The notes beneath the pieces were generated by a model, which worked only from the letters and a program-made list of their open reading frames with translations, was not told where the DNA came from and did no database searches. Shown here piece after piece: positions 3,298 to 50,826 of a stretch of DNA of 64,000 nt. Origin of the DNA: a virus (taxonomy: Duplodnaviria; Caudoviricetes); the IMG/VR virus record IMGVR_UViG_3300025708_000007, positions 1-64,000 of that record; one strand, 5' to 3'. How positions within the stretch are numbered: the first letter of the stretch is position 1; each line of letters begins with the position of its first letter. The translations under genes were made by a program, and so were the position numbers.

Positions 3298-3849
3298 TTA
3301 ATTTCCTTTCGTTTCACTTAAAAAAGGAACAACGTCCTCTTTTACAGGTATTCCAACAACAACTTTCCAATATGGTTTAAAGCCACCAATTGTTTTTTTG
3401 GTTTCATCGGTTACATTATTGGCACTTTCCACTTCATAATACCTGCTCTTTTCTCCGCTCATGTTGTATTCAATAATATCACCCCTGTCAATTTCGATTT
3501 GTTTTTCTTCCAATTCTTTAAGATAAATTCCAAATCTTATATTTCCTGCATCATCACGTGCAATACCACCCGGATTCCCACCATAATTTTCTTGTTTACC
3601 GTCTTCAACAGTAACCATAACCTTCAGTCTTACAGGGGCAAAAAACTTCTTGTCTTTAGTTTTGGTTTGACCATATAATGCGTGTGACTTAGATTCAATT
3701 ATATTAATCTTGTGTAATATAACTTCCTGTGCATTATCTGTTTCGAGATAATTTCTACCGTACATTACATCCAAATCGAAAGAATTGTCAGTCATGAACA
3801 AACCCATTCTTTGACTTTCAAGGTCTATAAGTTGTTTTTTCTTTTTCAT
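3298..3849 (-). CDS. putative neck/head-completion protein (gp14-like)
   Basis: LYG motif and IDRGDII..YYEV beta-rich C-terminus; lies two genes from a gp13-like gene. Confidence 0.45.
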   Translation of the reverse strand: MKKKKQLIDLESQRMGLFMTDNSFDLDVMYGRNYLETDNAQEVILHKINIIESKSHALYGQTKTKDKKFFAPVRLKVMVTVEDGKQENYGGNPGGIARDDAGNIRFGIYLKELEEKQIEIDRGDIIEYNMSGEKSRYYEVESANNVTDETKKTIGGFKPYWKVVVGIPVKEDVVPFLSETKGN

Positions 3850-4688
3850 TAGTCAATTATTTTAAAACCTTCAACTTCAAGCGAATTTATCCCATCAACA
3901 AAACTTTGATATTGCCTGTCAATCGCCCAATCAGGTACATTTGACCTATCAACACCAGCTTCAATATCTTTTCTCACTCTTTGTTTTGCCACTTCCGGGT
4001 CAACACTAAATATTTTTGCAAATCCCTCAAATGGCTTATCTACATGAACTTTCATATAGTTCATAAGTCTTTTCCTATCTTCAGATTTTACATTTGTAGC
4101 ATCAAGAATTACGTTTTTACCGTTATTTAGTGCATCGGCAACTCTTTGAAATGCAAGTGCCCAAACTTGTCCATTTTTTGTTTGGTCAGAAATATTTCCG
4201 GTTAATTCCCTGCGAATATCGTCAGGAGATACAACAACAGTGTTGGCATCAGTATTTGCCTTAATCCACGTAGACTTACCACTACCAGAAATACCAACAG
4301 GGAGAAGTAATTTTGGTTTCCTTTCAATTTCAACTTCGCCTATTATTTCGTTTGGTGAATATTTATCTTCATATTTAATTCTCCAATTATATAATTTCTG
4401 AATGCCCCTACTATTAACCACACCGATTTTATCGTCAATGTTTATATTTTTCTTAATTATTTCTTTGGCACGCTCTAAAGTAAACTTCATAACGCTTGGG
4501 TCACTGTGTTTAACTCGATAATCACATGTTCCAAAACTGTCTTTCATTACTCCACTCAAAGAAGTAATGAAACATTTTCCACCGTGACCTATTCTAAAAA
4601 TTGCCCATGTGTTATCTTCAGGTGATTGGAATTCAGGATTAAGTTTTTCCATTACCTCAAAAAGTCGTTGTTTACTGTCTTTTTTCAT
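3849..4688 (-). CDS. P-loop kinase (AAA_33 / polynucleotide-kinase-like) with N-terminal RLFEVM leader
   Basis: GISGSGKST Walker A, VSPDDIRREL, VILDATN, RxxxR lid region. Confidence 0.8.
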   Translation of the reverse strand: MKKDSKQRLFEVMEKLNPEFQSPEDNTWAIFRIGHGGKCFITSLSGVMKDSFGTCDYRVKHSDPSVMKFTLERAKEIIKKNINIDDKIGVVNSRGIQKLYNWRIKYEDKYSPNEIIGEVEIERKPKLLLPVGISGSGKSTWIKANTDANTVVVSPDDIRRELTGNISDQTKNGQVWALAFQRVADALNNGKNVILDATNVKSEDRKRLMNYMKVHVDKPFEGFAKIFSVDPEVAKQRVRKDIEAGVDRSNVPDWAIDRQYQSFVDGINSLEVEGFKIID

Positions 4689-4689
4689 A

Positions 4690-5808
4690 TTAAATTGCTA
4701 TAATTGGGAACATTGGCGGTTGGTAGCCACGTTCTTTGTTAACGTTTTCAGCTATTTTAGCACGAATCTCTGTCATATTTTCCTGACTTAATTTTTCCAA
4801 CTGGTCAAGAATAATTTTTTCAGTATCTTCTTTTAATTTTGTTCCTTCTTCAAGCAAATGGCGATAATCCATTGTCAATTGCTTTTCAGTAACGCCAAGT
4901 TCACCACTGTAAAACCCTCTTATTCCACCAATAACAATTTTTACTTGCGCAATAAGAAGATTTCTTATTTGTTGTTGTGCAACATCATTCATTTTACCCC
5001 ATTCCAAAACCTTTGTTGGCGGGTCTGATGGTAATCTGACAACATCACTGTTTTCTTCCATACATTTATCTCTATCGTTAATGTTTGTGTCATAATACCA
5101 ATACCAAACTTTTCTACCAGCCATATGCTTACCCCATACACCTTGAATTTCATCACGTGAACCGGGTATTGGGTACAAATGTAATACTTTTTCTCCACTT
5201 GCCAAACCAGTAACACGATATGTTAATATTGATTGTAAAACTCTTTGCTTCATTCTTCTATCCTGTGCAGTTAAAAGAGTTGAAAATGTGGGTTGTACAT
5301 ACATTGCTGGACGACCAAGATATGACCAGCCAACCATGCCCGGACTCCAAGCATTTAATGCGAATGGGTCAACTAAGCCACCATCTATTTCTGGCGGTGT
5401 TTCCCACAAAACTTCATTAATTTCTCTACCAGCAGGTATAATATAATGCTGTGTATTTGCTTGTGTAACAATGAAATCACGCTTTAATTCCCAACCAGTT
5501 GCTGCAGGTGCGTTTGTTCCTAAACCAACTTGACGTGAATAAGCATATGTAAATGATTCCATATAATGATTTGATTTAGTTGTAAAAGCAGAAAGAAAAT
5601 CGCTGCTTTCTTTACTTAAACCTTCAAGTCCAATCCATTGCTGTTGTATCAGCCAATTATTCACAATTGATGAATAATCTTCTATAACCATTTCAAGGTA
5701 AGAATCCATCATTTCATCCTTAATTTCAAATGGTCTGAGTGGATATCCCAACGCATGTTTAACCTTGAGATACAGTTTATTTTTATCAACAGTAGTTATT
5801 AATGCCAT
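4690..5808 (-). CDS. putative neck protein (gp13-like)
   Basis: KVKHALGYPLRPFEI N-terminus reminiscent of gp13 (LGxP); upstream GTATTTAT motif; near head genes. Confidence 0.5.
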   Translation of the reverse strand: MALITTVDKNKLYLKVKHALGYPLRPFEIKDEMMDSYLEMVIEDYSSIVNNWLIQQQWIGLEGLSKESSDFLSAFTTKSNHYMESFTYAYSRQVGLGTNAPAATGWELKRDFIVTQANTQHYIIPAGREINEVLWETPPEIDGGLVDPFALNAWSPGMVGWSYLGRPAMYVQPTFSTLLTAQDRRMKQRVLQSILTYRVTGLASGEKVLHLYPIPGSRDEIQGVWGKHMAGRKVWYWYYDTNINDRDKCMEENSDVVRLPSDPPTKVLEWGKMNDVAQQQIRNLLIAQVKIVIGGIRGFYSGELGVTEKQLTMDYRHLLEEGTKLKEDTEKIILDQLEKLSQENMTEIRAKIAENVNKERGYQPPMFPIIAI

Positions 5809-5856
5809 AATTATGCTTATTTCATATAAATACTAAAAAGTTTTTTTAAAAAATGG

Positions 5857-8257: not shown

Positions 8258-9913
8258 TTACTTCAAGTCGCCAATTCCGAAGGTTGTTAAACCATCGCAG
8301 AAAATTCTACCGTAGTAACGGTTAAGAACCATTTTCTTTGCATAACGAGTCATGATACCACGAATCGGTGTGAAATCGAATGGGTTGTACATAACCGGAG
8401 TCAACTGCATTGGTACATAAGGAGCATAAATGTAACCAGTCTCAAGGATTGATGTACCTTTATGTCCGATAAGTACTGTGTTTGCAGGAGCATACGGGTC
8501 ACGGTATACGATGTAACGTCCGCTAAGTGTACCGATTTTTTCGATACCCATGTTGTACTTGTCCTGTTCAGGAGCAGCGTTGCTAACATGGAAGTATTCA
8601 AGGTCATCGAATACTGCACTTACTTCAGGAGATACAACTACCCATGAAGCACCACCACGAAGGGTAGCTTTGTGAATCTGTGCTGAAATCTGGTTAACTT
8701 TTGTTACCAATGTTTGATTCCAGTCTTTCTGAACACCGTAGTATCCAGTAGTCTGCTTACGAAGACCATTGTAGTCCCATCTTGTTGTCCAAGCAGCACC
8801 CCTTCTAAGGTCACGAAGGATTTCACGGTCAATTTCTGCAGCCATCTGTTCTGAAAGAAGAGCGGTTAACTCAGCTTCAGCGTCAATGTTGTGGAATGCA
8901 CTAACGTCCTGTGCAAGTTCAGGTGTCCACATAGCACGCATTTTACGTGTTTCTACAGATACTGTAACTTGGTCAAGTACGAAAGTAACTTCAGCCATTT
9001 TTGAATCTTCTTCAAGGTCGCTGTATACCCTGTATGCATAGCTGAAAGTAGTTGCACTTGTAGCACCACTCAAAGCCTGATAGCCGTCAGTTCCCGGATA
9101 TGTTAAGTCAGCTACTACAACAACATCGCCAGTTTTGCTAACGATACCCTGTCCGTATTTCTGAACTTTTACATTGAAAGGAATAACTGAACTTGCAGGA
9201 ATTGAATCAGCAGCAGTAGGAGCATCCAAATTAGTGTCTGCGAAAATCCTCAAACCAGCAAGGAATGATTCGGTATCCAAAGGAACACCAGCAGGACCGA
9301 TAAGTTTACCATCGTTTGATGTACTGAAACCAGAAATGGTTAAAGTAACGAATTTACCAGTTGTATCAAGAACTGCTGCGCAGTCACCTGTTATAACGGT
9401 AATTTCACCCTTTGAACGGTCAAACAATGAATAACCTTCGTCATTATATTCGGTTGCATAGAATGCATCGTATAATGAACGAGTTTCGAACTGAGTTCTT
9501 GCTGATAAAGCAAGGTCAGCAGCATTACCATAAGCACCATTAGGTGAAGTATGCTCAAGACCAGCCGGAGCAACCCTAACAGAAGTCTTAGGATTGATGA
9601 AGTACAACTTACCGATAGGCAAGTTTAAAGCCTGTACTGAAACGATGTCGTTTGCAAGTAATTTTGCAAATACCCTACGAATTACAGGGAATGCAACAGT
9701 TTCGAACTGACCTGAACTTGCAGAATCAGTTGATTCGTTAATCATGTAAGATAACTGATTTTCGAAAAGCTGTGCGCAGTTTTCTTTTACGTTACCTTCA
9801 AGACCTTCCAACAAACCGATTTTTTCCCAACGGTTGGTTGTTATTTCTCTTTGTTCACGAAGTTGTTTTAATCCAATATTACCAACTTCGGCACTTTCCA
9901 TTAAAAATCCCAT
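8258..9913 (-). CDS. major capsid protein (T4 gp23-like)
   Basis: VQALNLPIGKLY, RKMRAMWTPELAQD, DAEAELTALLSEQMAAEIDREIL, YAPYVP, PIRGIMTRY. Confidence 0.95.
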   Translation of the reverse strand: MGFLMESAEVGNIGLKQLREQREITTNRWEKIGLLEGLEGNVKENCAQLFENQLSYMINESTDSASSGQFETVAFPVIRRVFAKLLANDIVSVQALNLPIGKLYFINPKTSVRVAPAGLEHTSPNGAYGNAADLALSARTQFETRSLYDAFYATEYNDEGYSLFDRSKGEITVITGDCAAVLDTTGKFVTLTISGFSTSNDGKLIGPAGVPLDTESFLAGLRIFADTNLDAPTAADSIPASSVIPFNVKVQKYGQGIVSKTGDVVVVADLTYPGTDGYQALSGATSATTFSYAYRVYSDLEEDSKMAEVTFVLDQVTVSVETRKMRAMWTPELAQDVSAFHNIDAEAELTALLSEQMAAEIDREILRDLRRGAAWTTRWDYNGLRKQTTGYYGVQKDWNQTLVTKVNQISAQIHKATLRGGASWVVVSPEVSAVFDDLEYFHVSNAAPEQDKYNMGIEKIGTLSGRYIVYRDPYAPANTVLIGHKGTSILETGYIYAPYVPMQLTPVMYNPFDFTPIRGIMTRYAKKMVLNRYYGRIFCDGLTTFGIGDLK

Positions 9914-9933: not shown

Positions 9934-11490
9934 TTACAAATTATTTTTTTTGCCTCTTTTCTCTATGGTTTCAATGATTCTCTTCATTTTATTGAGATGT
10001 TCATTGTTTTCATAGGCTGTTACTTCTTTTGCTTCATCAAGTTTCTGCTTTGAAGATGGAGCAACTGAGGCTGCTACTTTATCTTCAATAGCTTCAGTTA
10101 AAGTTTTCTTGCCTTCCTTCATTTCTGAAAGGACTGCTTTGTACTTCTTCTGTGATTCAGCAATACTATCAACCTTTTTAAATTCGTTGATAATCTTAAT
10201 CTTATCTTCTTGAGTTAATGCCAATTCTTCATTTACCAAAAGGTTATTTACATGTGCCAAATTGGTATTGAAAACTGCCATTTCTTTCAATTGTGTGCGA
10301 TACTTTTCAAGTGCCGTCTTATAGCTTTCAATCAAAGTTGTAGCTGACTTTTTGAATTTAATGGTTTCATTAACTTTCTTCGTCAACTTCTTGTTTTCAT
10401 CGATTAAACCCTGAAGTTTTTTCGATTCTTTAATCGCTTCCGGTGACTGGTCTTTTTCGCCCTGACTCAAATATTCTTGTCCCGGCAATACTCTACCCGG
10501 CATTGGTCTCCTTTTTGCATAGGTTACACCATGTGCTTCATCAACTTCCTTTTCTGCACCCAATACTGCTTCAACGTCAGCATCGGTAATTGGAGCTTCT
10601 TCTTGTAAATCAGCAGGACTCATTTCATCCGGCTGCAATTGAAGTTCATCAATTAATTTTTCAGTAGGACCTTGATTGTGTAGAGCATCAATCTGACCAT
10701 CACTACCAAATGTTTCCTGACCTGCAGCATGCATTTCATCAACTGGTTTGAATGAGTTAATCATTTCATCGATTTGATTTCTCATACTTACAAGCTGGTC
10801 GAATGCAACACCTTTATTGCCTTTATCCATATATGAAGGAGAAGAAGGTTCAGTAAAATCGGTAATTCTTTCATCAAGATTTTCCATATTTGCTATTTCT
10901 GCTTCAATCTCATCCATTGTAATGATTTCGTCTTCTTCACCAGCACCTTCTATTGCAGTGCCAACACTATCAACGCTTTGTCCTGTCATGTCAAGGTTTT
11001 CTGTTTGAAGTGGTTTCTGAGCTTTTTTTGCTTTTTCTTTGAATGGGTCGCCATCGCCAACAGTATCTGTAACTTTTACAGTTTCATCAACCATTTTTTC
11101 GCCTTTAGCTTTCTCATCGAATGGGTCGCCATCACCAACGGTATCAATGATTTTTACATCTTCTTCTACCTGTGCCACTTGTTTTGCTTTTTCTCCGAAG
11201 GGTTTACCTTCTCCTGCGGTTTCTTTTACGGCTTTTTTAGCCTCTTTTTCTTGTTTCATAACAGTATCATTATTTGATTCAACGTCATCTTTCGATTCTT
11301 TGCTTTCGTCTATTCTCTTATAAGACTCTTTGGTTGATTTATTTTTATTTAATTCTTCCTTTAATAGTTTATTGAATTTATCGGGAAATTCTTCCGCTAA
11401 TTTCTTCTTAGCATTAGCTTCTGCAGCCTCTCTGATTGCATTATAATCAGTTAAAGCTTCTTTTACTATCGATTTTTTATCGTTTGCCAT
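9934..11490 (-). CDS. prohead core/scaffold protein (gp22-like)
   Basis: acidic coiled-coil protein between protease and MCP; many (I/L/V)xE sites; internal DTVGDGDPF duplication. Confidence 0.7.
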   Translation of the reverse strand: MANDKKSIVKEALTDYNAIREAAEANAKKKLAEEFPDKFNKLLKEELNKNKSTKESYKRIDESKESKDDVESNNDTVMKQEKEAKKAVKETAGEGKPFGEKAKQVAQVEEDVKIIDTVGDGDPFDEKAKGEKMVDETVKVTDTVGDGDPFKEKAKKAQKPLQTENLDMTGQSVDSVGTAIEGAGEEDEIITMDEIEAEIANMENLDERITDFTEPSSPSYMDKGNKGVAFDQLVSMRNQIDEMINSFKPVDEMHAAGQETFGSDGQIDALHNQGPTEKLIDELQLQPDEMSPADLQEEAPITDADVEAVLGAEKEVDEAHGVTYAKRRPMPGRVLPGQEYLSQGEKDQSPEAIKESKKLQGLIDENKKLTKKVNETIKFKKSATTLIESYKTALEKYRTQLKEMAVFNTNLAHVNNLLVNEELALTQEDKIKIINEFKKVDSIAESQKKYKAVLSEMKEGKKTLTEAIEDKVAASVAPSSKQKLDEAKEVTAYENNEHLNKMKRIIETIEKRGKKNNL

Positions 11491-11621: not shown

Positions 11622-12344
11622 TTATAATAAGAACTTATCTATTGCTTTTATTATCTTACTTTCTTCTTCCTTAATCAATATTCCATTTTTGTTAACATAC
11701 CCTTCTTCAAACTCCAACCCGCTTTGTTCTGGAAATAAATAAGCACCGGGTGTACTTGGTGTAGCAACTAAGTCAAAACCTATTAGTTCAAAATCGTTTT
11801 GAACCATATTTTCACCATTAACCTCTTTAAGTGTGCCAACACCACGTGAGGAAATACCTAATTTAATTTTGTTTTGTAAATAAAGAACAATCTTATCGCC
11901 AATAACCGAAACAACACCATATTTAATATATCCCGGAGATACGATAATTTTAAGCTGACCGAATAGCACATTACTTTGTTCACCCTTACCCCACCACATT
12001 TTCGTAATCATATGGGAGATGTTTTGAAGAGAAATTATTGATGAATCTGGATGGTCTGCTTCAGATACTGCACTATTTGTATCAACCAACTGTTGATATG
12101 ATTGTACTTGAGGAACTAAAACGTCTTTAGGATAAACACGTCCATTCTTATTTTTTACACCCCACTTCTGCAGAATACAGTTAATTAATACGGGTTCGTT
12201 TGGTTTGAGTACAAATCCTTCACTTATCATAGTAGGATTTAAATCAGTATTAACATAGCCAGCATCGTGCTCAATCAAAATTCCAAATCCATATTCACCC
12301 GCTTGCAATATTCTACCTTCACTCAACCTAAATATCTTACTCAT
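11622..12344 (-). CDS. prohead protease (gp21-like)
   Basis: KNKNGRVYP, SEADHP, LGISSRGVG, FDLVATPSTPGAY. Confidence 0.93.
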   Translation of the reverse strand: MSKIFRLSEGRILQAGEYGFGILIEHDAGYVNTDLNPTMISEGFVLKPNEPVLINCILQKWGVKNKNGRVYPKDVLVPQVQSYQQLVDTNSAVSEADHPDSSIISLQNISHMITKMWWGKGEQSNVLFGQLKIIVSPGYIKYGVVSVIGDKIVLYLQNKIKLGISSRGVGTLKEVNGENMVQNDFELIGFDLVATPSTPGAYLFPEQSGLEFEEGYVNKNGILIKEEESKIIKAIDKFLL

Positions 12345-19145: not shown

Positions 19146-21173
19146 TTATTTATCTTCTAAATCAAGATTTTCAATTTCTTCAAAGTCAACATCCACTCCG
19201 GTATCAATAGCACCATGCTGTGTGTTAATGCTTTCACCTACGTTAAGTAAAGTATCGATTTCATTAACCATCTCTAACGCTTTCTTATTCTGATTTTCAA
19301 CGATTGCGTTATTTTCATTAATTACTTTCTTATGCTTTGCTGATTTTTTACGTTCGGGTTCTGCAGTTTCACCGCCAACCAATTTTTCAACGAGCTTGTT
19401 AAATTCATTAACACTCATTCTTCCTTTACCTTCAGCTAAAGGTGGTGCTCCACCAACAGGTGGTGCTGCTGCTTCAGGTGGCATACCGCCACCCATTTCT
19501 GGTGCTCCACCAGCAGGTGCTCCACCAACAGGTGGCATACCGCCACCAGCAGGTGCTCCACCGCCAGCAGGTGGCATTTCTCCACCCGGAGTAGTTGCAC
19601 CCGTTTCAGCACCAATTGGCATTCCTTCAACTGGCTCACCATATCTTGCATCAATATCTGCAAATAAGCCAGTTTTCTTAATATTAACTGGAGAGTCTTG
19701 AAGTTCTTGCATGATGACTTTTTCCATTTTTTGTTGTTTCAAGTCATCAATAATTTCCTTATCACTCATATTCCACAACTTCCTCTTAGCATTGGTGTGT
19801 GACATTGCAGCAATACCACCTTCACCACGTGTTAATTCAGTATATGTTTGTGCTTTATCACGCATTAATTCAGACTTCATTTGTTCTGCCTGAAGCGAAG
19901 GATTGGTAAGCGTTAATTGGAAATTATTTAAATCATCACCAGTGTAACCCAATAAATATAAATGTATCATTGCCATTTTATTGAGTTCCTGAATTATTGC
20001 CTGTTGAATACGATTTACTTTTTTTGCAAAGCGGATGTCATATTGAGCCATATTTTTTCCCGCACCTGCAGCATCTTGGAATGATAAGAAAGGTTTCGGT
20101 ATCCCAAGACCAGTAAATAAATTATCACGAAGGTATTCAATGTCATGTATTTGGTCAAGATTTTGTGCACCCGGAAGTGTTTCAATTCCTGTTTGAGTAT
20201 TTGCATTTCTTACTGGTAAGAAATAATCTTCATCATTGCCAAGAATATTGAAGCGATAATCAATTTGACCATCGTTTGGTGAAACCTGTGCAATCTTTTT
20301 AAATTTGGTAGCAACCTTATAGATATAATCTTCAATATCGTCTTCATCAATATTTCCAACGTCAATTTTGAAAACTTTCTTCTCACCAGCACGAATAATA
20401 CGATAGGTTAACATTGCATCTTCAGCCATTACAAGCTGACGAAAAACTCTACGTACTTTATTAAGTACTGATGAACCATATGGTAAATATTTATCATCAC
20501 CAAGAAGCCTGAAATGAGCAATTTCAAAAACATTAAATTCATCACCAGTCATTCTTTCTCTAAATCTGACTGTTGGTTTACCATTTTGTATTCTTTCGAA
20601 ACGTTCAATTTCATAATTCACTAATTGTTTTACGTGAGTAACACCTTTTTTACGTTCACCATAAAGCAACACAAAATTATCACCATATTTTACAGTATTT
20701 CTTACCCAAAACGGTAAGTTTACATTTACGTTAACAGTATCATAGAAAAATTCTTCCAACATAGTTTTAATTCTTTCTTTGTTGGAATATATGTTGAGCA
20801 TTTTACCATTAAAGCCAATGGTTGTTGCTTCTTCCATAAATAAATCCAATGCACTTGAAATAATTGGATAGTATTCCATACCCTCATAATCAATATATGC
20901 CGGAAGTCTGGCTGCTTCATATTGTAGTGCTTTCTGGAAACCTCTATCAGTGGTTCTGAAAAATTTATTTTGAAGGTCTTTTTTTTGTTGTAACTCCAAT
21001 CCCTTCCTCATTACTTCATCAGGACTACTACCTTTAATAATAACCTTTGGTGGTTGTTTTACTGGTGTGCTTTGCGAAATTGCAGGTTGCTGGTCTTGAA
21101 AACCAAAACCGTCCAGATTCAACATTTTATTAAGCTGTTGATATATAGTACCTTTTTTCTGTTCGTCAGCCAT
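19146..21173 (-). CDS. portal protein (T4 gp20-like)
   Basis: QLVMAEDAMLTYRIIRAGEKKVFKIDVGNI, EDYFLPVR, IETLPGAQNL, IEYLRDNLFTGLGIP. Confidence 0.95.
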   Translation of the reverse strand: MADEQKKGTIYQQLNKMLNLDGFGFQDQQPAISQSTPVKQPPKVIIKGSSPDEVMRKGLELQQKKDLQNKFFRTTDRGFQKALQYEAARLPAYIDYEGMEYYPIISSALDLFMEEATTIGFNGKMLNIYSNKERIKTMLEEFFYDTVNVNVNLPFWVRNTVKYGDNFVLLYGERKKGVTHVKQLVNYEIERFERIQNGKPTVRFRERMTGDEFNVFEIAHFRLLGDDKYLPYGSSVLNKVRRVFRQLVMAEDAMLTYRIIRAGEKKVFKIDVGNIDEDDIEDYIYKVATKFKKIAQVSPNDGQIDYRFNILGNDEDYFLPVRNANTQTGIETLPGAQNLDQIHDIEYLRDNLFTGLGIPKPFLSFQDAAGAGKNMAQYDIRFAKKVNRIQQAIIQELNKMAMIHLYLLGYTGDDLNNFQLTLTNPSLQAEQMKSELMRDKAQTYTELTRGEGGIAAMSHTNAKRKLWNMSDKEIIDDLKQQKMEKVIMQELQDSPVNIKKTGLFADIDARYGEPVEGMPIGAETGATTPGGEMPPAGGGAPAGGGMPPVGGAPAGGAPEMGGGMPPEAAAPPVGGAPPLAEGKGRMSVNEFNKLVEKLVGGETAEPERKKSAKHKKVINENNAIVENQNKKALEMVNEIDTLLNVGESINTQHGAIDTGVDVDFEEIENLDLEDK
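19440..19600 (-). repeat. Gly/Pro/Ala-rich coding repeats in portal C-terminus
   Basis: repeated GGAP/GGGMPP units (GGTGCTCCACCA on + strand). Confidence 0.75.
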
Positions 21174-28659: not shown

Positions 28660-28959
28660 TTATTTTTTCTTGGTAAATACTTTTAATAATTCTTCAGCTA
28701 CCATTTGAACATCTTGTTGAACGTTCTGTCCTCTCGGCTTTCTTTCAACAAACAGTCTATATAGTGTATCAATCACTTCGTAATCGTATTCTCTCATTAA
28801 TTCATCAATAACGGCTTTAAGTTTTTCAGCCTTTAATTGATATTCTCTATCATACTCGTCTTCGCTACGATTTAAAACACCTTCATTTACTTTGAAATCA
28901 GAGTTTAATTTAACCATGTTTTCAAATAATAGCTTTTTTATATCCTTTTGCTTTTTCAT
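28660..28959 (-). CDS. hypothetical protein with RLFEVM-like leader
   Basis: MKKQKDIKKLLFENMVKLNSDFKVNE N-terminus. Confidence 0.7.
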   Translation of the reverse strand: MKKQKDIKKLLFENMVKLNSDFKVNEGVLNRSEDEYDREYQLKAEKLKAVIDELMREYDYEVIDTLYRLFVERKPRGQNVQQDVQMVAEELLKVFTKKK

Positions 28960-28975
28960 ATAAGATAAATACTTA

Positions 28976-30100
28976 TTAATGATACAATAAAAAGGTTCTT
29001 TTTACATCTTTTCTTTGTGCTGCAATATCACCCTGTCCTTTTGGCAATACAATAACATCAAAAACACCTTGAGAACCTTCAGGTATTTTTATTAAGTCAT
29101 CATACATTATTAAAGTATTGATGTCTGCATTATACTTATCAGCAATTCTTTGCTTTAATGTAGCAATGCTGTTTTCGTCTTTTGGTATTAATTTGCCTTT
29201 ATCGTCCACAGCAAAATGCGGACCTTTTCTAATAAACAAATCATTAAAAATATCTGAGGACACTATTTCAGATGTTTTTGCTTGCGTTAAATCAACCTTC
29301 CCTTTTTCTTTTTCGGTAGCATCGACAGAAAAATTCAAGGTCACATCAGGGTCATTCAAGTTATAAACATCACCCATTTTCGTATGCGCATATGAGCCAA
29401 AATTATATCCTTTGCTTTTTAATTCACGTGTTATATCTGCAGCAATTTGAAAATATTTTTTTGAGAAAAAATCACCAGCATCATTCCATCTGAAAAGTAA
29501 TTTTTTACCTTTATTTTTCAATGCCACTATTTCAATTTCACGCCTCAATATTTCTTTAAATTCATCTGGTTTATTTAACAACAGGTTTAAAATTCTTGTT
29601 TGCTTTACAAATATTGATGGTATTAAAACATATCTTCCACGTCTTGCATAGCACACTCTCTGGCAAGAACCTGCACCGGGACAAGTGTTTATAATATAAA
29701 ATTCTTTATTATCCATATCATATACTAACCCACGCAATGCAGGTATGCCGATATTAAATGTTATTGAATTATCAGTACCAGATTTTCCCATTTTTTCGTT
29801 TTGACTGATAATATTTGGGGGGTATGCTGTTATGTTATCAATAAAAGCCTGTACATCAATTTCTCCTTTTTCATCAAACGGAATTGCTTTATTGTGTACA
29901 AGTAACGATGATTTAGTTCTTTTATCTGAAGGCAATTCCTGATTAGACAATACTTTATTGAGATATTCTTTCAATGCCTCAACATTCATACATTCTTTTG
30001 AAACATCACTGAATTCACCTTCCCAATCAATTTCGTTCAATGACATCCCGCCAACACTTTCCATTAATTGAAAAAGTCGTTTCTTATTATCCTTATCCAT
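28976..30100 (-). CDS. GP88-like Cys-cluster protein with RLFEVM-like leader
   Basis: TCPGAGSCQRVCYA and LFRWNDAGDF motifs resemble the phage GP88 family (recollection). Confidence 0.6.
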   Translation of the reverse strand: MDKDNKKRLFQLMESVGGMSLNEIDWEGEFSDVSKECMNVEALKEYLNKVLSNQELPSDKRTKSSLLVHNKAIPFDEKGEIDVQAFIDNITAYPPNIISQNEKMGKSGTDNSITFNIGIPALRGLVYDMDNKEFYIINTCPGAGSCQRVCYARRGRYVLIPSIFVKQTRILNLLLNKPDEFKEILRREIEIVALKNKGKKLLFRWNDAGDFFSKKYFQIAADITRELKSKGYNFGSYAHTKMGDVYNLNDPDVTLNFSVDATEKEKGKVDLTQAKTSEIVSSDIFNDLFIRKGPHFAVDDKGKLIPKDENSIATLKQRIADKYNADINTLIMYDDLIKIPEGSQGVFDVIVLPKGQGDIAAQRKDVKRTFLLYH

Positions 30101-37407: not shown

Positions 37408-38121
37408 ATGAAAAATCGGGGTGGTAGACAAAGACTTTTTGAAGTTCTGGCAAAAGTAGACCCAACTTTCAAACCCAAAGCAGGTACTGGTGCAAAGCTA
37501 TATGTAAAGCCATCGGATGTGCCGTTACAAATCATTGATTGGGCAAAATCAATTGTTGGCGGTGGCTTTCAAAACAATATAACAATACAAAAATCAACAG
37601 GTGCTGTAAAACTTGGTATGCCTTGGCATGATGCTGATAGAGAAACACACCAATATTTTAAATTAATGGATAATGGTGCTGCTGAAATGGGAAATCCAGT
37701 ATCAAGGTCAGGCTGGTCAGAAGTAAATATGGGTGATAGTTATGGTGAAGTTCCAATACCGTCAGGTTATGTTTTAGCAACAGTTGGTACATATCCAAAA
37801 AGGCTTAGAATAGTAACAAACCCGGATGCGATGGATGTGCTTTCAAATAATGATGAAGCATTAAACAAACTTTCTGATGAAGCATTGGTTGCGTTACACC
37901 AAGCAAAATCATATAAATCGTTTGCCAGACAAAAATTTAATAATAGTGTTTATGAGGAATTATTATCATCTGGATTAATGAACAAACAAAGAGCAATAAC
38001 AATTGATGGAAGAAATTTCATTAGTTCTCCAGAAGCCATTAAAAAATTAAAAAACATTAAAGAAAAAGATGAAAAGGAAAATGGCAGATGGAGTGCGAAA
38101 TATTATATGCCAAGTATTTAA
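37408..38121 (+). CDS. hypothetical protein with RLFEVM-like leader
   Basis: MKNRGGRQRLFEVLAKVDPTFKPK; GGTATTTATT at 37384-37393. Confidence 0.75.
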   Translation: MKNRGGRQRLFEVLAKVDPTFKPKAGTGAKLYVKPSDVPLQIIDWAKSIVGGGFQNNITIQKSTGAVKLGMPWHDADRETHQYFKLMDNGAAEMGNPVSRSGWSEVNMGDSYGEVPIPSGYVLATVGTYPKRLRIVTNPDAMDVLSNNDEALNKLSDEALVALHQAKSYKSFARQKFNNSVYEELLSSGLMNKQRAITIDGRNFISSPEAIKKLKNIKEKDEKENGRWSAKYYMPSI

Positions 38122-38136: not shown

Positions 38137-39060
38137 ATGAAAAAAGATAGCAAACAAAGACTTTTCGAAGTTATGAGCAGACTTGATAAAACATTCAAGC
38201 CAAAATTGAATGAAATTTTTGGGGAAGAACCAGAAGAATTCGTCCCACACGGCACATATACTGTTTCGAATGCAGGTGGTTATGAAATTATGTTAAACGA
38301 TGCGGGTGATGCTGCCAAAGTACGTGATGCGTTTGGCTCAGACAACCCAAAAACTTCAGATTGGTTAGAAATAGAATACACGCCTGATAATGAAACTGGC
38401 GAAAGTGAACCAGTTATTGACCCAAATGGTTATAACATTCCTTTAAATCAGGTTATGAGATTACAAGAAGAAGCAAATGTTAATGAAGAACAAACCAGAC
38501 CATTATATGATATTGCTCAAGAAATCTATCAGGACTGGAGACCAGTTCATCCATATGCAAAACCATATCTTGAAGCAATGTCAACATTGAATTCAATAGA
38601 TGATAACTATATGATGGATTCAGGTAGAAGTATTGTTTCATATTTTCTTTCAAATGCAAGTCAATGGAAAGGTGAAACAGCAAAACGCATTAAAATTGAA
38701 TTGAAAAAAATGTTAGGAATGCGAGAAGGTAGTAGATTAAATGAAACTGGTGAATGGGCAGGTGATGAAGATGATATAGCATGGATAGATGCTCTCAAAT
38801 CTGAAGTACAAAAAATCGAATCAGAAACTGATGGAAAATTAAAATTGGTCGAAGTCAGGGGTTTCGATAAATATCAAGGACCTTACGCCATTGTTGATAT
38901 TGAAGGAAGAAAATACAAAATCTGGACAGTTGGTGGTGAATATGATAGCGATTTACTTTGGATTGAAAATTATCCCATTGACAATACTTCAAGTGAGGAT
39001 ATGAATGCTGGTTTTATGGGTACAACAAAAACAATTATTAATATGTTGAAACAGAACTGA
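38137..39060 (+). CDS. multidomain protein with RLFEVM leader
   Basis: MKKDSKQRLFEVMSRLDKTFKPKLNE; internal LQE/VNE/LNE junctions. Confidence 0.8.
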   Translation: MKKDSKQRLFEVMSRLDKTFKPKLNEIFGEEPEEFVPHGTYTVSNAGGYEIMLNDAGDAAKVRDAFGSDNPKTSDWLEIEYTPDNETGESEPVIDPNGYNIPLNQVMRLQEEANVNEEQTRPLYDIAQEIYQDWRPVHPYAKPYLEAMSTLNSIDDNYMMDSGRSIVSYFLSNASQWKGETAKRIKIELKKMLGMREGSRLNETGEWAGDEDDIAWIDALKSEVQKIESETDGKLKLVEVRGFDKYQGPYAIVDIEGRKYKIWTVGGEYDSDLLWIENYPIDNTSSEDMNAGFMGTTKTIINMLKQN

Positions 39061-45121: not shown

Positions 45122-45494
45122 GGGGCAGTTTGGTTTTGACAGCATGCTTGAATGGTATGTAAGCAAGTCGTAGTTTGAGCAACACTACGTAAAAACAGGT
45201 TCAAAACAATAAATGCAGAGGATATAATGTCCATTCCTACTTCTCTAACGAGAGGTCGCTTATTTGTAGAGAGTGCTGAACTCGCAATGGTAGCGTAAGG
45301 AAGCAGCAAACGCAGCAAAAACCTTCCAAATAAACCCATCTCGATGGAACTTGTTATTTTAACAGAGAGATAAGGAAGTAAAATAAAACAGTGGATAAAA
45401 AATAAATGTTTTGCTGATTTAGAAAAATCAGATAAACTTGTAGAAAACGTATTGGGCACATGACTGCACACGGGTTCGAATCCCGTCTGCTCCA
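45122..45494 (+). ncRNA. ssrA: tmRNA
   Basis: 5' GGGGCAGTTTGGTTTTGACAGC, 3' GGGTTCGAATCCCGTCTGCTCCA, G3:U70; resume GCA at 45215 after ATAAAT; tag AEDIMSIPTSLTRGRLFVESAELAMVA* to 45298. Confidence 0.92.
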
Positions 45495-45519
45495 CTAAAA
45501 CATTTAAAACATTGAAATT

Positions 45520-47837: not shown

Positions 47838-48341
47838 ATGGCAAAAATACTCAAAGTTCCAATGAAAGGACAATGGTATGATTTTGATTGCGGTGTTGCT
47901 ATAACATATTCAATATTAAGATATCTCAAAATAAAGGTTAGTTATGAAGATGTTTTAAAAACATCAAAAGTGTGCCCGGTAAATGGCATAAAGCCAAACA
48001 AGCTTATCAATTTGTTTAAAAAATTTGGATTGAATGCTGTTTGCGAAAACGATAAAAACATTAGATTCTTAATCAAACAAATAAATGCCAATAATCCAGT
48101 AATTGTATTAATTCAATGTAGAAAAGAATATAAAAAGTCTTGGGCGAGTACGTGGGCACACGGACACTACGTTGTGGTAATTGGTTACGATAAAAACAGA
48201 GTATTTATATTTGACCCGTCAATGGGTGGTAGCATAAAAACATTTACACATAAACAATTTTATGGTCGTTGGCATGATTATTCAAAAAATAATACTTATA
48301 TTCGAACCGTAATTTATATTGATGATGAAAATGAGAAATGA
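47838..48341 (+). CDS. C39-like cysteine peptidase
   Basis: QWYDFDCGVA (Q...C), HGHYVVVIGYD, FDPSMG. Confidence 0.8.
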   Translation: MAKILKVPMKGQWYDFDCGVAITYSILRYLKIKVSYEDVLKTSKVCPVNGIKPNKLINLFKKFGLNAVCENDKNIRFLIKQINANNPVIVLIQCRKEYKKSWASTWAHGHYVVVIGYDKNRVFIFDPSMGGSIKTFTHKQFYGRWHDYSKNNTYIRTVIYIDDENEK

Positions 48342-48376
48342 AAGGGCATCAGTCTTTTAAGTTAATTACTTAAAAG

Positions 48377-48700
48377 ATGAAAGCAAAAAAAATCTCAGAC
48401 GAAACCACTAATCGTGGTGAATTCAATCGTGCATACAAGTTTTATCTTGAGCACAGTGGCAAAATTAGCTGTAGTTATTGTCGTTACAATCGTGGCGAAA
48501 ATTCAAATCAAAAATGGTATGGTGGTTATCTTTATGATGACATGGAAATTTGTCGTGGTAAAAGAAAGGGAACAAATACCAGATTTCCAAACTGGAAACT
48601 TGTTTCAAAAAATAAAAAACAGTGGATGGAAAAGCCAATCAAAATGAAAAAAAGATATTTTGGTGGGTATACCAGAATTTATATCGACATTGTTTGGTAA
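48377..48700 (+). CDS. hypothetical basic protein
   Basis: CSYCRYNRGEN and NWKLVSKNKKQW motifs. Confidence 0.7.
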   Translation: MKAKKISDETTNRGEFNRAYKFYLEHSGKISCSYCRYNRGENSNQKWYGGYLYDDMEICRGKRKGTNTRFPNWKLVSKNKKQWMEKPIKMKKRYFGGYTRIYIDIVW

Positions 48701-48712
48701 TGTCGATTATTT

Positions 48713-48785
48713 GGCGGGATAGCTCAGTTGGTAGAGCGATGGAGTCATAACCCATAGGTCGTGAGTTCGAATCTCACTCCCGCTA
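48713..48785 (+). tRNA. tRNA-Met(CAT) (elongator; Ile2 not excluded)
   Basis: GGCGGGA acceptor; loop GTCATAA. Confidence 0.88.
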
Positions 48786-48789
48786 CAAA

Positions 48790-48818
48790 TAAAAAAACCC
48801 ATCGAATTCGATGGGTTT
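48790..48818. terminator. terminator ending tRNA operon 2 / convergent genes
   Basis: AAACCCATCGAATTCGATGGGTTT palindrome. Confidence 0.75.
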
Positions 48819-48833
48819 ATGTTTCCAGTGTGT

Positions 48834-49100
48834 TTACTTTTTCTTTTTTTCTTTTTGCTGTTTGATGTATGCTTTGATAACTTTATCCAATCCGAAGAAT
48901 TTCCAGAAAATCCAATATCCCAAAAGGATAAATCCCCAAAGTCCAACCAGTGTTGCAGCACCCGATTTTCCAGCATCGTCTAATTTACCATATGCAAATA
49001 ATACAACAAATACGTTTACTATTTGAATCCACGCAACTTTTAACCAAGGCAGTGCGGTTTCTTTTGCCCATTTTTTAATTTTTTCCCAAAGATTTTTCAT
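48834..49100 (-). CDS. two-TM membrane protein (holin-like topology)
   Basis: two hydrophobic helices and a basic C-terminus. Confidence 0.65.
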   Translation of the reverse strand: MKNLWEKIKKWAKETALPWLKVAWIQIVNVFVVLFAYGKLDDAGKSGAATLVGLWGFILLGYWIFWKFFGLDKVIKAYIKQQKEKKKK

Positions 49101-49127
49101 TTTATTATTTTTACCATAATGTTATTT

Positions 49128-49526
49128 TTATTTATAATCAGGACTTATTTTGTATGATTTTGCTGTAACATACCCGCTTGATGCACTCTTGCCTGTTGGA
49201 ACAATTGCACCCATATCAATGAGTGATTTTGCAACTGGTTCATTTTCGCTCCAATCTTTCAAGAAAAATTCGTCTTCAGCAAGTTGCGCTGATTCCGGCA
49301 TATTAACCGAAATCATTGCAAATGGTTCGCCATTGGTAGTGATTAGTTCAACGGCAAGTGCATTGTTGTCCCTATACCTGTCAAATTCGAAATATACTTC
49401 ATCATCTTCACCCCAAAGATTAAGTGTGAATGTTTTCTGCGGACTTTCATTCAATTTTCTTTTCTTAAATGTTTTATCAAGTCTGCCCATGACTTCATAA
49501 AGTCTTTTTCTATCTGTATTTTTCAT
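49128..49526 (-). CDS. DUF4313-like protein with RLYEVM leader
   Basis: MKNTDRKRLYEVMGRLDKTFKKRKLNE; then YRDNNALAVEL...EPFAMISVN...DEFFLKDWSENE. Confidence 0.7.
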   Translation of the reverse strand: MKNTDRKRLYEVMGRLDKTFKKRKLNESPQKTFTLNLWGEDDEVYFEFDRYRDNNALAVELITTNGEPFAMISVNMPESAQLAEDEFFLKDWSENEPVAKSLIDMGAIVPTGKSASSGYVTAKSYKISPDYK

Positions 49527-49530
49527 ATTA

Positions 49531-50364
49531 TTAAATTATTTCAACTAATTCCCACTCACTTGAATTTTTGGGTGATTGAATTTCTTCCGAAACCACTACG
49601 GATGAACCTCTTTTTATTCTTAACTCTTTGATGATATCATCATTCAACAATTGTTCAAGAACCGCATCTGATAGTGGCGATGAGGTAAATCCTCTTGCAA
49701 ATGTCCTTGAAATCCTATAACGTTGTAATTCAGGATTTTTTGATTTAACAACTGTAATTTCCAAATCACTCAATCTTCCTTGATTTACAAATTTTTCCAT
49801 TAAGTTGAATAGATGGTCAGATTCTTTATTATAAACTTCCGGTGTCGTTACAGTAACACTATATTGTTTATTCATGTGAATAATTATTGCAATCAAATCT
49901 TTTTGTCTGACATTATCAGACACGTTGATTTCACCTTCATGTGTTGCAGTTATTTTAAATCCATATCCCATACCATTTATTCTTCTTGCTTCACGTTCAA
50001 ACGAAAATCCATGATTTCCGTTTTCCTTAAAAATAAGAAATTGCTTCACGTGAATCATTTCGTGTGCAAATGTATTTAAAAATTCTCTATATGGCAACTT
50101 ATAAAAGGTGGAAATTGCTAAATTTTTTACAATTATTTCACGTGTGTATCTATTAATCAATGCCTGTACCTTACCAAGCGGTCTCATTTTCATTAACACC
50201 AATGGAACTTTTGGTAATTGATTATCAAAAAGCAATAGATTTAATCTATCGTATTCCTCTTGCAGATTAATCTTGTTCAAATCAACGATTTCATCATCAG
50301 CATACTTGCCATATTCAGTAATAAAACCACCGATTTCTTCTTTTATGATTACATTTAATTTCAT
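49531..50364 (-). CDS. SprT-like zinc metalloprotease domain protein
   Basis: NTFAHEMIH (HExxH) and HGFSF second ligand region. Confidence 0.78.
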   Translation of the reverse strand: MKLNVIIKEEIGGFITEYGKYADDEIVDLNKINLQEEYDRLNLLLFDNQLPKVPLVLMKMRPLGKVQALINRYTREIIVKNLAISTFYKLPYREFLNTFAHEMIHVKQFLIFKENGNHGFSFEREARRINGMGYGFKITATHEGEINVSDNVRQKDLIAIIIHMNKQYSVTVTTPEVYNKESDHLFNLMEKFVNQGRLSDLEITVVKSKNPELQRYRISRTFARGFTSSPLSDAVLEQLLNDDIIKELRIKRGSSVVVSEEIQSPKNSSEWELVEII

Positions 50365-50367
50365 CTA

Positions 50368-50826
50368 TTAACCAAATATTACATCACATTTCATTGTACT
50401 GAAATCTATTTCAACTTCTGTTGGATATACTCCATCACCAAAAACTCTGTCTGTAATTGAAGTATTAAATTCCCACTGATACTTCGCAACATCAAGCTGT
50501 GCTTCTTGGTCGGGTACATTTTCATCTGATGATACGATTTCATAATATATTGTGCCTACAATGCCATCAATCATAACCATCATGCTTTTAATTCCATAAT
50601 CCCTGATTTCTGGTATAATGTGCCATTTCACATCAACCTTCTGACGATAAGCATCAACATATTCTGCTTGTGGATAAAATTTTTCTTTTAAGCCGTCAAT
50701 ATGAACCTCAACATTTTTTGAATAAAATGACCAATCATCATCAGTCATTTCATTCATTTTGGGTTTATACGATTTATCAATAGCTTGCATAACTTCAACA
50801 AGCCTTTGTTTTTTATTGCCTTTCAT
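50368..50826 (-). CDS. hypothetical protein with RLVEVM leader
   Basis: MKGNKKQRLVEVMQAIDKSYKPKMNE; ATG 50826 lies downstream of the GTATTTAT motif (rc 50847-50856). Confidence 0.75.
   Translation of the reverse strand: MKGNKKQRLVEVMQAIDKSYKPKMNEMTDDDWSFYSKNVEVHIDGLKEKFYPQAEYVDAYRQKVDVKWHIIPEIRDYGIKSMMVMIDGIVGTIYYEIVSSDENVPDQEAQLDVAKYQWEFNTSITDRVFGDGVYPTEVEIDFSTMKCDVIFG

What the first reader, a model, noticed from the sequence alone, without database searches (positions are those of the whole stretch)
3849..50826. Shared N-terminal KQRLFEVM...FKPKLNE leader on unrelated late proteins: candidate capsid-targeting signal
Seen: near-identical N-termini on proteins with unrelated bodies. They are MKKDSKQRLFEVMEKLNPEF (kinase 4688), MKKQKDIKKLLFENMVKLNSDFKVNE (28959), MDKDNKKRLFQLMESVGGMSLNE (GP88-like 30100), MKNRGGRQRLFEVLAKVDPTFKPK (37408), MKKDSKQRLFEVMSRLDKTFKPKLNE (38137), MKNTDRKRLYEVMGRLDKTFKKRKLNE (49526) and MKGNKKQRLVEVMQAIDKSYKPKMNE (50826). 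Most sit behind the GTATTTAT motif, and five end in (L/V/M)NE like the MCP propeptide (...MINE/ST). Established: T4 internal proteins share an N-terminal capsid-targeting sequence removed by gp21 after L/I-x-E. Inference: this is a modular ~25-aa tag that loads diverse enzymes into the head for injection, and may be usable for protein packaging.
Basis: partly seen in the sequence, partly recalled or inferred. Interest (0 to 1): 0.82.

Follow-up and report, generated by a model that had tools for sequence, protein, structure and literature searches.

The report
Shared head-loading leader on phage proteins
Seven unrelated proteins of this uncultured giant phage start with the same ~26-residue tag, which usually ends in the probable cut site of the phage's own T4-type head protease. 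It is most likely a label that loads proteins into the capsid as in phage T4, a known idea in a new, very large and untested sequence family.

Summary
A profile of the leader finds exactly these 7 ORF starts in the 90,967-bp record (E 1e-9 to 1e-17; next best about 2.7). The seven bodies share no similarity (best BLASTP E 0.35).

The phage has a T4-type head module: Gp23 capsid protein, gp21-like S77 protease with its His and Ser, and Gp20 portal. The capsid propeptide ends M-I-N-E|S. Five of the seven leaders end in (L/V/M)NE at residues 23-27.

The family is large:
- 115 unique leader proteins in 73 IMG/VR loci, in at least 25 body clusters.
- 637 clusters at E<=0.001 among 1.84 billion representatives, almost all with the leader N-terminal.

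Synonymous sites vary freely, so selection acts on the peptide. Complete relatives are 325-365 kb jumbo phages with 3-11 leaders each. One cargo is an ADP-ribosyltransferase, which recalls T4 Alt. Some proteins are in-frame polyproteins whose internal leaders lie between L-x-E motifs. A cultured Flavobacterium phage (immuto) has its own sister leader on at least 4 proteins.

Best reading: a T4 CTS-like capsid-targeting propeptide (confidence 0.62). Packaging and cleavage are untested. The GTATTTAT motif is a general gene-start motif, not a late marker. This scan has noted similar leaders, including this (R/M)LFE(V/M) type, on other genomes. I found no paper on this family.

The parts
38137..38214 (+). 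Leader (26 codons, ends KLNE) of the 307-aa protein 38137-39060. The body looks like three modules joined at LQE..VNE (aa 109-117) and MRE..LNE (aa 195-203).
   Evidence: The middle module (aa 111-193) matches phrog_13953 and leaderless actinophage proteins.
4611..4688 (-). Leader (first 26 codons, no x-N-E end) of the 279-aa AAA_33 / Zeta_toxin / polynucleotide-kinase-like protein 3849-4688.
   Evidence: The ortholog L062:114-647 has the same leader and also lacks the cut motif.
28882..28959 (-). Leader (26 codons, ends KVNE) of the 99-aa protein 28660-28959. This variant reads KKLLFENM and resembles the Immutovirus leader.
30032..30100 (-). Leader (23 codons, subtype RLFQLMESVGGMSLNE) of the 374-aa GP88-family protein 28976-30100.
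   Evidence: Nine GP88-family orthologs all carry this subtype, each ending in [LIV]xE.
37408..37479 (+). Leader (24 codons, cut motif lost: KPKAGTGAK) of the 237-aa protein 37408-38121, a conserved protein of the clade with unknown fold.
   Evidence: In many orthologs the leader ends LNE immediately before the conserved body. AF2 shows the leader detached from the body.
49446..49526 (-). Leader (27 codons, ends KLNE) of the 132-aa DUF4313 protein 49128-49526.
50749..50826 (-). Leader (26 codons, ends KMNE) of the 152-aa protein 50368-50826 (no family).
8258..9913 (-). T4-type major capsid protein (Gp23 family). The predicted 61-aa propeptide ends MINE|S (coding 9731-9913).
   Evidence: PF07068 E 3e-72. 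The site M(I/L)NE|S is conserved in 22/22 clade MCPs. The T4 mature chain aligns from query aa 69.
11622..12344 (-). gp21-like prohead core serine protease (Peptidase_S77), the presumed enzyme that removes the leaders.
   Evidence: PF03420 E 2e-19. It aligns to T4 gp21 (5jbl), with His (EADHP) and Ser (GISSRG) at the two positions where that chain has Ala.
9934..11490 (-). 518-aa acidic, helix-rich protein between the protease and the MCP. This is the presumed scaffold/core protein and a candidate docking partner of the leader. It has three [VI]NE motifs in its C-terminal part.
   Evidence: Position and composition. No family hit. The assignment is an inference.
19146..21173 (-). T4-type portal protein (Gp20 family).
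   Evidence: PF07230 E 2e-62.

Best explanation
The ~26-residue leader is a capsid-targeting propeptide of the T4 CTS kind.

Proposed mechanism:
1. Its N-terminal amphipathic helix (residues 3-16, core K-Q-R-L-F-E-V-M-x-[KR]-L) docks the newly made protein onto the scaffold/core of the assembling prohead. This step is inferred.
2. The extended tail (D-K-T-F-K-P-K-L-N-E) presents an [L/I/V/M]-x-E site, usually x-N-E.
3. The phage's gp21-like S77 protease cuts there during head maturation, as it is predicted to cut the capsid protein after M-I-N-E. This step is inferred from sequence.
4. The released bodies stay in the head and are presumably ejected with the DNA into the next host. This step is inferred by analogy with T4 IPI-III and Alt.

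The tag is modular. It sits on at least 25 unrelated body families in the clade, often in tandem gene arrays. It also occurs inside in-frame polyproteins, where it is bracketed by L-x-E motifs.

Shown here:
- the shared peptide and its N-terminal position;
- selection at the peptide level;
- the motif match with the MCP propeptide end;
- an intact T4-type protease;
- modular distribution across unrelated bodies.

Not shown: packaging, cleavage and injection.
For: (1) Exactly 7 leaders occur in the record, all at ORF starts and on unrelated bodies.

(2) The head module is T4-type: Gp23 MCP, S77 protease and Gp20 portal. The protease keeps His and Ser at the positions that are Ala in the crystallised T4 gp21 chain.

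(3) The MCP propeptide ends M(I/L)NE|S in 22/22 clade members, 7 residues before the region that aligns with mature T4 gp23. That gives a 61-aa propeptide, against 65 aa in T4 (PMC5694885).

(4) The leader tail carries [LIVM]xE in 88% of 116 leaders, against 28% of body windows. It carries [LIVM]NE in 59% against 3.5%. The cut position peaks at residues 26-27.

(5) Third codon positions and Leu codon families vary freely at invariant L, F, E and V, and upstream DNA is not conserved beyond a general 8-mer. Selection is therefore on the peptide.

(6) In the 37408 family, conservation of the body starts right after the leader. Distant orthologs have a different N-terminus that still ends I-x-E.

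(7) AF2 predicts a helix at residues 3-16 followed by coil through LNE. In a full-length model the leader is detached, with pLDDT below 50.

(8) There are 115 unique leader proteins in 73 IMG/VR loci, in at least 25 body clusters. There are 637 clusters in 1.84e9 representatives, and 131 of the best 150 carry a single leader at residues 1-30.

(9) Cargo types fit injected effectors. They include ART-PolyVal (G020:97109-97543), which recalls T4 Alt, and a Zeta_toxin/AAA_33 kinase (PMC5512222).

(10) All 5 complete relatives (325-365 kb) have the MCP, the S77 protease and 3-11 leaders, mostly within about 40 kb of the MCP gene.

(11) Of 18 internal leaders in polyproteins, 16 have [LIVM]xE within 20 aa upstream (p 1.5e-7) and 16 have it at their end.

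(12) Published precedent: the T4 CTS is a 10-20-aa N-terminal propeptide removed by gp21, and it is sufficient to package foreign proteins (PMC9026906, PMC5694885, PMC3012670).
Against: - There are no virion proteomics, cleavage data or expression data for any member. All members are uncultured.
- Two of the seven window leaders (kinase 4688 and 37408) lack the terminal cut motif, as do about half of the 37408 orthologs. Cleavage is therefore not obligatory.
- The leader has no detectable homology to T4 internal proteins (no PHROG or Pfam hit over it).
- [LIVM]NE is common in this proteome (48 sites) and does not single out head proteins.
- The enrichment statistics partly use sequences selected with a profile that contains LNE.
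- Four of the seven genes lie among tRNA arrays rather than in the head module.
- The docking partner is unknown.
Confidence: 0.62

Rival explanations
1. The leader is a shared docking helix for some other common partner, and the terminal glutamate motif is incidental. Candidate partners are a hub protein, a chaperone, the outside of the capsid, or a tail or baseplate part. The proteins would assemble onto a structure or complex but would not be loaded inside the head or processed.
For: - The helix is predicted and nearly invariant.
- 2/7 leaders, and many 37408 orthologs, lack the cut motif.
- Several leader genes lie outside the head module.
Against: - The x-N-E end is enriched 17-fold over body windows and matches the MCP maturation motif.
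- Internal leaders are bracketed by L-x-E.
- The cargo includes small enzymes (ART, kinase, cupin) that are unlike structural parts.
Confidence: 0.13
2. The leader is an inhibitory pro-sequence. It keeps potentially harmful enzymes inactive in the producing cell until a protease removes it, without itself directing packaging.
For: - A cleavable-looking junction lies directly before the body.
- The cargo includes toxin-like folds (Zeta_toxin-like kinase, ART).
Against: - One 26-aa peptide is unlikely to inhibit at least 25 unrelated folds.
- AF2 shows it detached from the body.
- Many bodies are small, acidic, low-complexity proteins rather than enzymes.
Confidence: 0.07
3. The shared 5' coding segment is a nucleic-acid-level cassette spread by recombination: a promoter, a translation-initiation region and a downstream box. 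The peptide would be a by-product.
For: - A GTATTTA[TA] motif lies 5-21 nt upstream of 5/7 genes.
- The genes occur in tandem arrays.
- T4-type phages have mobile promoter cassettes at their internal-protein loci (my knowledge: Arbiol et al. 2010).
Against: - Third codon positions are far more variable than first and second positions at invariant residues, and Leu uses both CTN and TTR.
- Upstream DNA is otherwise unalignable.
- The 8-mer is a general motif with 69 copies.
- Leaders persist inside long ORFs, far from any start.
Confidence: 0.03
4. The leader is a secretion, membrane or degradation signal read by host machinery: a signal peptide, an N-degron or an adaptor tag.
For: It is N-terminal and positively charged at its start.
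Against: - It has no hydrophobic core. It is a charged amphipathic helix.
- It also occurs internally.
- In the records searched it occurs only in phage contigs, and where those are complete enough they carry this T4-type head module (MCP in 21 of 26 records, including all 5 complete ones; S77 protease in all 5 complete ones).
Confidence: 0.04

Closest known systems
Phage T4 capsid targeting sequence (CTS) of internal proteins IPI, IPII, IPIII and of Alt, removed by prohead protease gp21 (Mullaney & Black 1996; reviewed in PMC9026906, PMC3012670)
   Same: - An N-terminal tag shared by otherwise unrelated, fast-evolving proteins.
- It ends in [L/I]-x-E.
- The phage has Gp23, gp21 (S77) and Gp20 homologs.
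- The MCP propeptide is of similar length (61 vs 65 aa).
- One cargo in a relative is an ADP-ribosyltransferase, like Alt.
- The genes often sit in variable tandem arrays.
   Different: - There is no detectable sequence homology to the T4 CTS or IPs.
- It is about 26 aa (a helix plus an extended tail) rather than 10-20 aa.
- P2 is strongly Asn.
- Some members lack the cut site.
- Internal copies occur in polyproteins.
- Nothing has been shown experimentally.
Propeptides of head/ejection proteins of phiKZ-like giant phages (phiKZ gp175, 201phi2-1, SPN3US gp245; PMC5694885, PMC10052503)
   Same: - Giant phages with a T4-related protease that cuts after Glu.
- Paralogous inner-head proteins with conserved N-termini.
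- Multiple cut sites within one substrate.
   Different: - In those phages the motif is S/A/G-x-E, most propeptides exceed 100 aa, and the substrates are largely paralogs.
- Here P3 is L/I/V/M, the tag is short, and the bodies are unrelated.
Polyvalent proteins of phages and conjugative elements (Iyer et al. 2017, PMC5512222)
   Same: - Effector domains predicted to be delivered with the DNA.
- An ART-PolyVal domain and a Zeta-toxin-like kinase occur among the cargo.
- Several modules occur in one polypeptide in some members.
   Different: - Most members here are single small bodies behind a tag, not 2-15-domain giants.
- Modules are separated by a reiterated leader with protease-type junctions.
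- There is no MuF or portal-associated anchor domain.
Shared leader of cultured Flavobacterium phage vB_FspM_immuto (NC_055915, Immutovirus), found here
   Same: - It has a T4-type head (MCP 32% identical).
- At least 4 proteins start M-E-N-F-D-L-K-K-F-L-V-E-N-K-L-T-x-N-S-K-[LI]-[LI]-x-E|G.
- The length and architecture are the same.
- It resembles the window's 28959 leader (KKLLFENM...VNE|G).
   Different: - It does not match the clade profile.
- Homology is only suggestive (E 0.035 for the 99-aa pair).
- It too is uncharacterised.

Membership tests
T4-type capsid-targeting propeptide (CTS) system | The same short peptide sits at the N-terminus of several otherwise unrelated phage proteins. 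| tested here: met
   Seven of seven leaders lie at ORF starts and the bodies are unrelated. Of the 150 best database hits, 131 carry a single leader at residues 1-30.
T4-type capsid-targeting propeptide (CTS) system | The peptide ends in the prohead-protease motif (L/I)-x-E. | tested here: met
   Five of seven in the window end this way. In the family, 88% do so against a 28% background, and x-N-E occurs in 59% against 3.5%. Two window members lack it.
T4-type capsid-targeting propeptide (CTS) system | The phage encodes a gp21-type (Peptidase_S77) prohead protease with its catalytic residues. | tested here: met
   PF03420 E 2e-19. His and Ser are present where the 5jbl chain has Ala. The protease is present in 5/5 complete relatives.
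T4-type capsid-targeting propeptide (CTS) system | The Gp23-type MCP has an N-terminal propeptide ending in the same motif. | tested here: met
   M(I/L)NE|S occurs at residues 58-61 in 22/22 MCPs, just before the region homologous to mature T4 gp23. Cleavage itself is inferred.
T4-type capsid-targeting propeptide (CTS) system | The tagged proteins are present inside virions with the tag removed. | not testable with these tools
   No cultured member and no proteome exist.
T4-type capsid-targeting propeptide (CTS) system | The tag is sufficient to package a foreign protein. | not testable with these tools
   This needs a genetic system.
T4-type capsid-targeting propeptide (CTS) system | Sequence homology to T4 internal proteins or the T4 CTS. 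| tested here: not met
   No Pfam or PHROG family covers the leader, and there are no internal-head-protein hits. The resemblance is functional, not sequence membership.
phiKZ-like inner-body/ejection protein propeptides | Cleavage motif S/A/G-x-E and propeptides mostly longer than 100 aa. | tested here: not met
   P3 is L/I/V/M and the leader is about 26 aa.
Polyvalent proteins (Iyer et al. 2017) | Two to fifteen disparate effector domains in one polypeptide, near packaging genes. | tested here: inconclusive
   Most members have a single body. A minority are 2-3-module polyproteins. An ART-PolyVal domain occurs in one 157-aa member.

The most novel reading that the evidence does not exclude
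The leader would be a reiterated, excisable docking module, not only an N-terminal tag. This jumbo-phage clade would build cargo polyproteins of the form leader-body-leader-body, with bodies also joined at tandem L-x-E junctions as in the window's 38137 protein. The prohead protease would cut these apart inside the head. One translation product would then deliver several separate effectors, and new cargo would be recruited simply by in-frame fusion at a junction. The roughly 640 tagged protein clusters would then be a ready-labelled catalogue of injected effectors of uncultured phages.
Probability: 0.3. Interest if true: 0.7.

Novelty: new member of a known kind. Interest (0 to 1): 0.52.

Why it matters
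If the tag does load proteins into the head, one short profile labels several hundred protein clusters as probable virion-packaged, host-injected proteins of an uncultured jumbo-phage clade. Most of these clusters have unknown function. That class includes anti-restriction and host-takeover factors in T4, so the tag would give a direct handle for mining such effectors.

The tag also suggests a longer, helix-plus-linker packaging signal that could be used to load foreign proteins into T4-type heads. The sister leader in a cultured Flavobacterium phage makes the idea testable at the bench. The general principle (the T4 CTS) is more than 25 years old, so a specialist would be interested rather than surprised.

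Tried and rejected
- The first degenerate DNA pattern had too few fixed bases.
P0003 was not found in viral contigs.
- A tblastn of the leader against GenBank phages found nothing. The same kind of search does find the immuto leader at E 3e-9, so that negative result is meaningful.
- The clade profile does not match the immuto genome.
- The fold of the 37408 body gave no Foldseek PDB match and no ESM Atlas lead.
- No paper mentions DUF4313, RLFEVM or the related leader strings KKFLVEN, LFEVMG and LFEVMS.
- A per-protein count of [LIVM]NE does not single out head proteins, so I do not use it to predict other substrates.
- The N-terminus of the 814-aa protein (25062-27506) looks leader-like by eye (YFERL...VKE|S) but is not a significant profile match. 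I dropped it.
- The immuto 333-aa leader protein is not similar to the window's GP88-like protein.
- Reading GTATTTAT as a late-promoter marker was rejected.
- The single-linkage clustering of bodies over-merges through low-complexity acidic linkers, so '25 clusters' is a lower bound.

Full report
**The observation**

- A profile HMM built from them and run over all six frames finds only these seven, in the window and in the whole 90,967-bp record (E 1e-9 to 1e-17). The next best hit has E about 2-3.
- A larger profile run on the first 45 residues of 127 called genes gives the same gap: 4e-11 versus 0.3.
- Each match lies at an ORF start.
- The parts after residue 32 show no pairwise similarity (best BLASTP E 0.35).
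- The bodies fall into different families: AAA_33/Zeta_toxin/polynucleotide-kinase-like (3849-4688), GP88 (28976-30100), DUF4313 (49128-49526) and phrog_13953 (38137-39060). Three have no family.
- Five leaders end in LNE, VNE or MNE at residues 23-27. The kinase and the 37408 protein do not.

**The surroundings**

The record is a fragment of an uncultured phage with more than 40 tRNA genes and a tmRNA. It has a T4-type head module on the minus strand of the window:

- MCP 8258-9913 (Gp23, PF07068, E 3e-72);
- an acidic 518-aa scaffold-like protein, 9934-11490;
- gp21-like protease 11622-12344 (Peptidase_S77);
- portal 19146-21173 (Gp20);
- large terminase 21256-23337.

The protease aligns to T4 gp21 (5jbl). 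It has His and Ser exactly where that crystallised chain has Ala. From my own knowledge these are the catalytic His85 and Ser140.

The MCP has a single [LIVM]NE, at residues 58-60 in the context SYMINE|STD. The segment homologous to mature T4 gp23 begins 7 residues later. The predicted propeptide is therefore 61 aa, against 65 aa in T4 (PMC5694885). The site M(I/L)NE|S is conserved in all 22 MCPs of the clade that I retrieved.

**Spread of the leader**

- A degenerate DNA pattern for KQRLFEVM hits 73 IMG/VR stretches. By my own estimate about three would be expected by chance.
- In these stretches the profile finds 137 leaders (115 unique proteins), all N-terminal and often in tandem arrays of 3-4 genes.
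- Their bodies form at least 25 BLAST clusters.
- Pfam recognises only a minority: GP88 x9, DUF4313 x4, AAA_33/Zeta_toxin x2, Cupin_2 x2 and ART-PolyVal x1.
- The ADP-ribosyltransferase is a 157-aa protein of a complete 327,676-bp relative (G020:97109-97543). It recalls T4 Alt, a packaged, gp21-processed, injected ART (PMC5512222, PMC9026906).
- A profile search of 1.84 billion cluster representatives gives 637 clusters at E<=0.001. Of the best 150, 131 carry one leader at residues 1-30.
- Complete relatives are 325-365 kb. All five have the Gp23 MCP and an S77 protease and carry 3-11 leaders, mostly within about 40 kb of the MCP gene.
- No GenBank phage has the leader. The positive control for this kind of search is.
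- No paper holds its core strings.

**Peptide or DNA?**

- Upstream regions share only GTATTTA[TA], 5-21 nt before the ATG of 5/7 genes.
- That 8-mer occurs 69 times in the record, typically 14-24 nt before gene starts of every kind. It is a general promoter-like element, not evidence that these genes are late.
- Across 116 distinct leaders, third codon positions at the invariant L, F, E and V carry 0.7-1.9 bits of entropy. Second positions carry about 0 bits. Leu uses both codon families.
- The conservation is therefore selected at the peptide level. A mobile DNA cassette or an RNA element is not supported.

**The cut site**

- The tail of the leader carries [LIVM]xE in 88% of cases, against 28% of equally long windows in the bodies. 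It carries [LIVM]NE in 59% against 3.5%. The Glu peaks at residues 26-27.
- There is some circularity, because the profile used to collect members includes LNE. The initial DNA pattern did not.
- In the 57-member family of the 37408 protein, body conservation starts immediately after the leader. Many orthologs read ...KPxLNE|(S/A)K(I/L)YVKP. The window's copy has lost the motif. Orthologs at 38-40% identity have a different N-terminal peptide that still ends I-x-E just before the body.
- The GP88 family carries a leader subtype (RLFEMMxKVGGMPLNE) that ends [LIV]xE in all nine members.
- AF2 on the leader alignment predicts a helix at residues 3-16 followed by coil through LNE. In the full-length 37408 model the leader has pLDDT below 50 and is detached from the folded body, which starts at about residue 30.

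**Polyproteins**

- Fifteen of the 150 best database hits have a second, internal leader.
- DNA fetched from metagenomes confirms in-frame fusions under the standard code in four ORFs of three contigs (L115, L117 with two, L128).
- Of 18 distinct internal leaders, 16 have an [LIVM]xE within 20 residues upstream (binomial p 1.5e-7 against the 28% background). Homologous families make these cases partly non-independent. Sixteen also end in such a motif.
- The window's own 38137 protein looks similar. Tandem motifs LQE..VNE (aa 109-117) and MRE..LNE (aa 195-203) bracket a middle module (aa 111-193). That module matches a stand-alone actinophage protein family lacking any leader.
- In relative L014 the same module follows the leader directly.
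- Module boundaries thus coincide with protease-type motifs.

**A cultured sister system**

The closest cultured MCP (32% identity) is that of Flavobacterium phage vB_FspM_immuto.

- It has no match to the clade profile.
- At least four of its proteins, including two next to its terminase gene, start with their own shared 24-26-aa leader. This leader reads MENFDLKKFLVENKLTxNSK, then two L/I residues, one variable residue and E|G, so it ends in LKE, INE or LLE.
- The window's 28959 leader (KKLLFENM...VNE|G) looks intermediate between the two types. The two 99-aa proteins align weakly (E 0.035).
- This makes the hypothesis testable in a phage that can be grown.

**Interpretation**

The anatomy matches the T4 capsid-targeting sequence in all computable respects. 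In T4, the CTS is an N-terminal 10-20-aa propeptide. It gives internal proteins and Alt affinity for the prohead core, is removed by gp21 after (L/I)-x-E, and suffices to package foreign proteins (PMC9026906, PMC5694885, PMC3012670).

I therefore read the leader as a CTS-like tag. The helix would dock on the scaffold/core, the extended tail would be cut by the S77 protease, and the body would be retained and probably ejected.

Docking, cutting and ejection are inferences. The docking partner is unknown. Members without the motif would stay uncut, or would be cut only at the nearly invariant L-F-E inside the helix.

It is not a sequence member of the T4 CTS/IP families. It also differs from phiKZ-type propeptides, which use S/A/G-x-E and are usually longer than 100 aa.

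I weigh the rivals below the main reading for the reasons given in their entries. They are: a docking helix for another partner, an inhibitory pro-sequence, a nucleic-acid cassette, and a host-read signal.

**Relation to other notes of this scan**

Similar shared leaders, including the same (R/M)LFE(V/M) type, have been noted on other genomes. A first-reader note on this window proposed the polyprotein reading of 38137, which I checked in part.

**Verdict**

This is a new, very large member of a known kind of system, with an interesting polyprotein twist, and it is entirely untested experimentally.

Noticed in passing
G004:C1:214260-215930 and G008:C1:63143-64738 (loci L107, L108): In two complete relatives the S77 prohead-protease gene is one open frame of 651 or 615 aa. 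The Pfam match is split into positions 43-108 and 102-191 by an insert of about 400 aa, which suggests an intein or another in-frame insertion.
   Followed up: no
whole record; e.g. window 11528(-), 13019(+), 21198(-), 23354(-), 30116(-), 38114(+): GTATTTA[TA] occurs 69 times, mostly 14-24 nt upstream of start codons of structural and non-structural genes alike. It is probably the phage's general promoter or gene-start element.
   Followed up: partly
NC_055915 (L138:2697-3997; L139; L140): The cultured Flavobacterium phage vB_FspM_immuto has its own 24-26-aa shared leader (MENFDLKKFLVENKLT...LxE|G) on at least 4 proteins. One of them is annotated as cob(I)alamin adenosyltransferase.
   Followed up: partly
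window 38137-39060 (+): The 307-aa leader protein looks like a three-module polyprotein. Its junctions are LQE..VNE (aa 109-117) and MRE..LNE (aa 195-203). The middle module matches leaderless Gordonia and Mycobacterium phage proteins (phrog_13953).
   Followed up: partly
L011:4255-4740, L013:6388-6879, L027:4486-4977 and about 20 others: The commonest cargo family is a ~160-aa protein: leader, then often EWNFDKKKGE, then a long acidic/lysine-rich low-complexity stretch, then a conserved C-terminus KIPVAAIAKVGK. It may be an abundant internal protein.
   Followed up: no
window 9731-9913 (-) versus the leaders: The MCP propeptide contains AQLFENQLSYMINE. This resembles the leader core (KQRLFEVM..., KKLLFENM...VNE) by eye. 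The profile does not score it, so it may be chance, or it may be mimicry of the scaffold-binding part of the MCP.
   Followed up: partly
window 33797-63876: ARAGORN finds 41 tRNA genes and a tmRNA (45122-45495) in the window. Four of the seven leader genes lie among these arrays.
   Followed up: no
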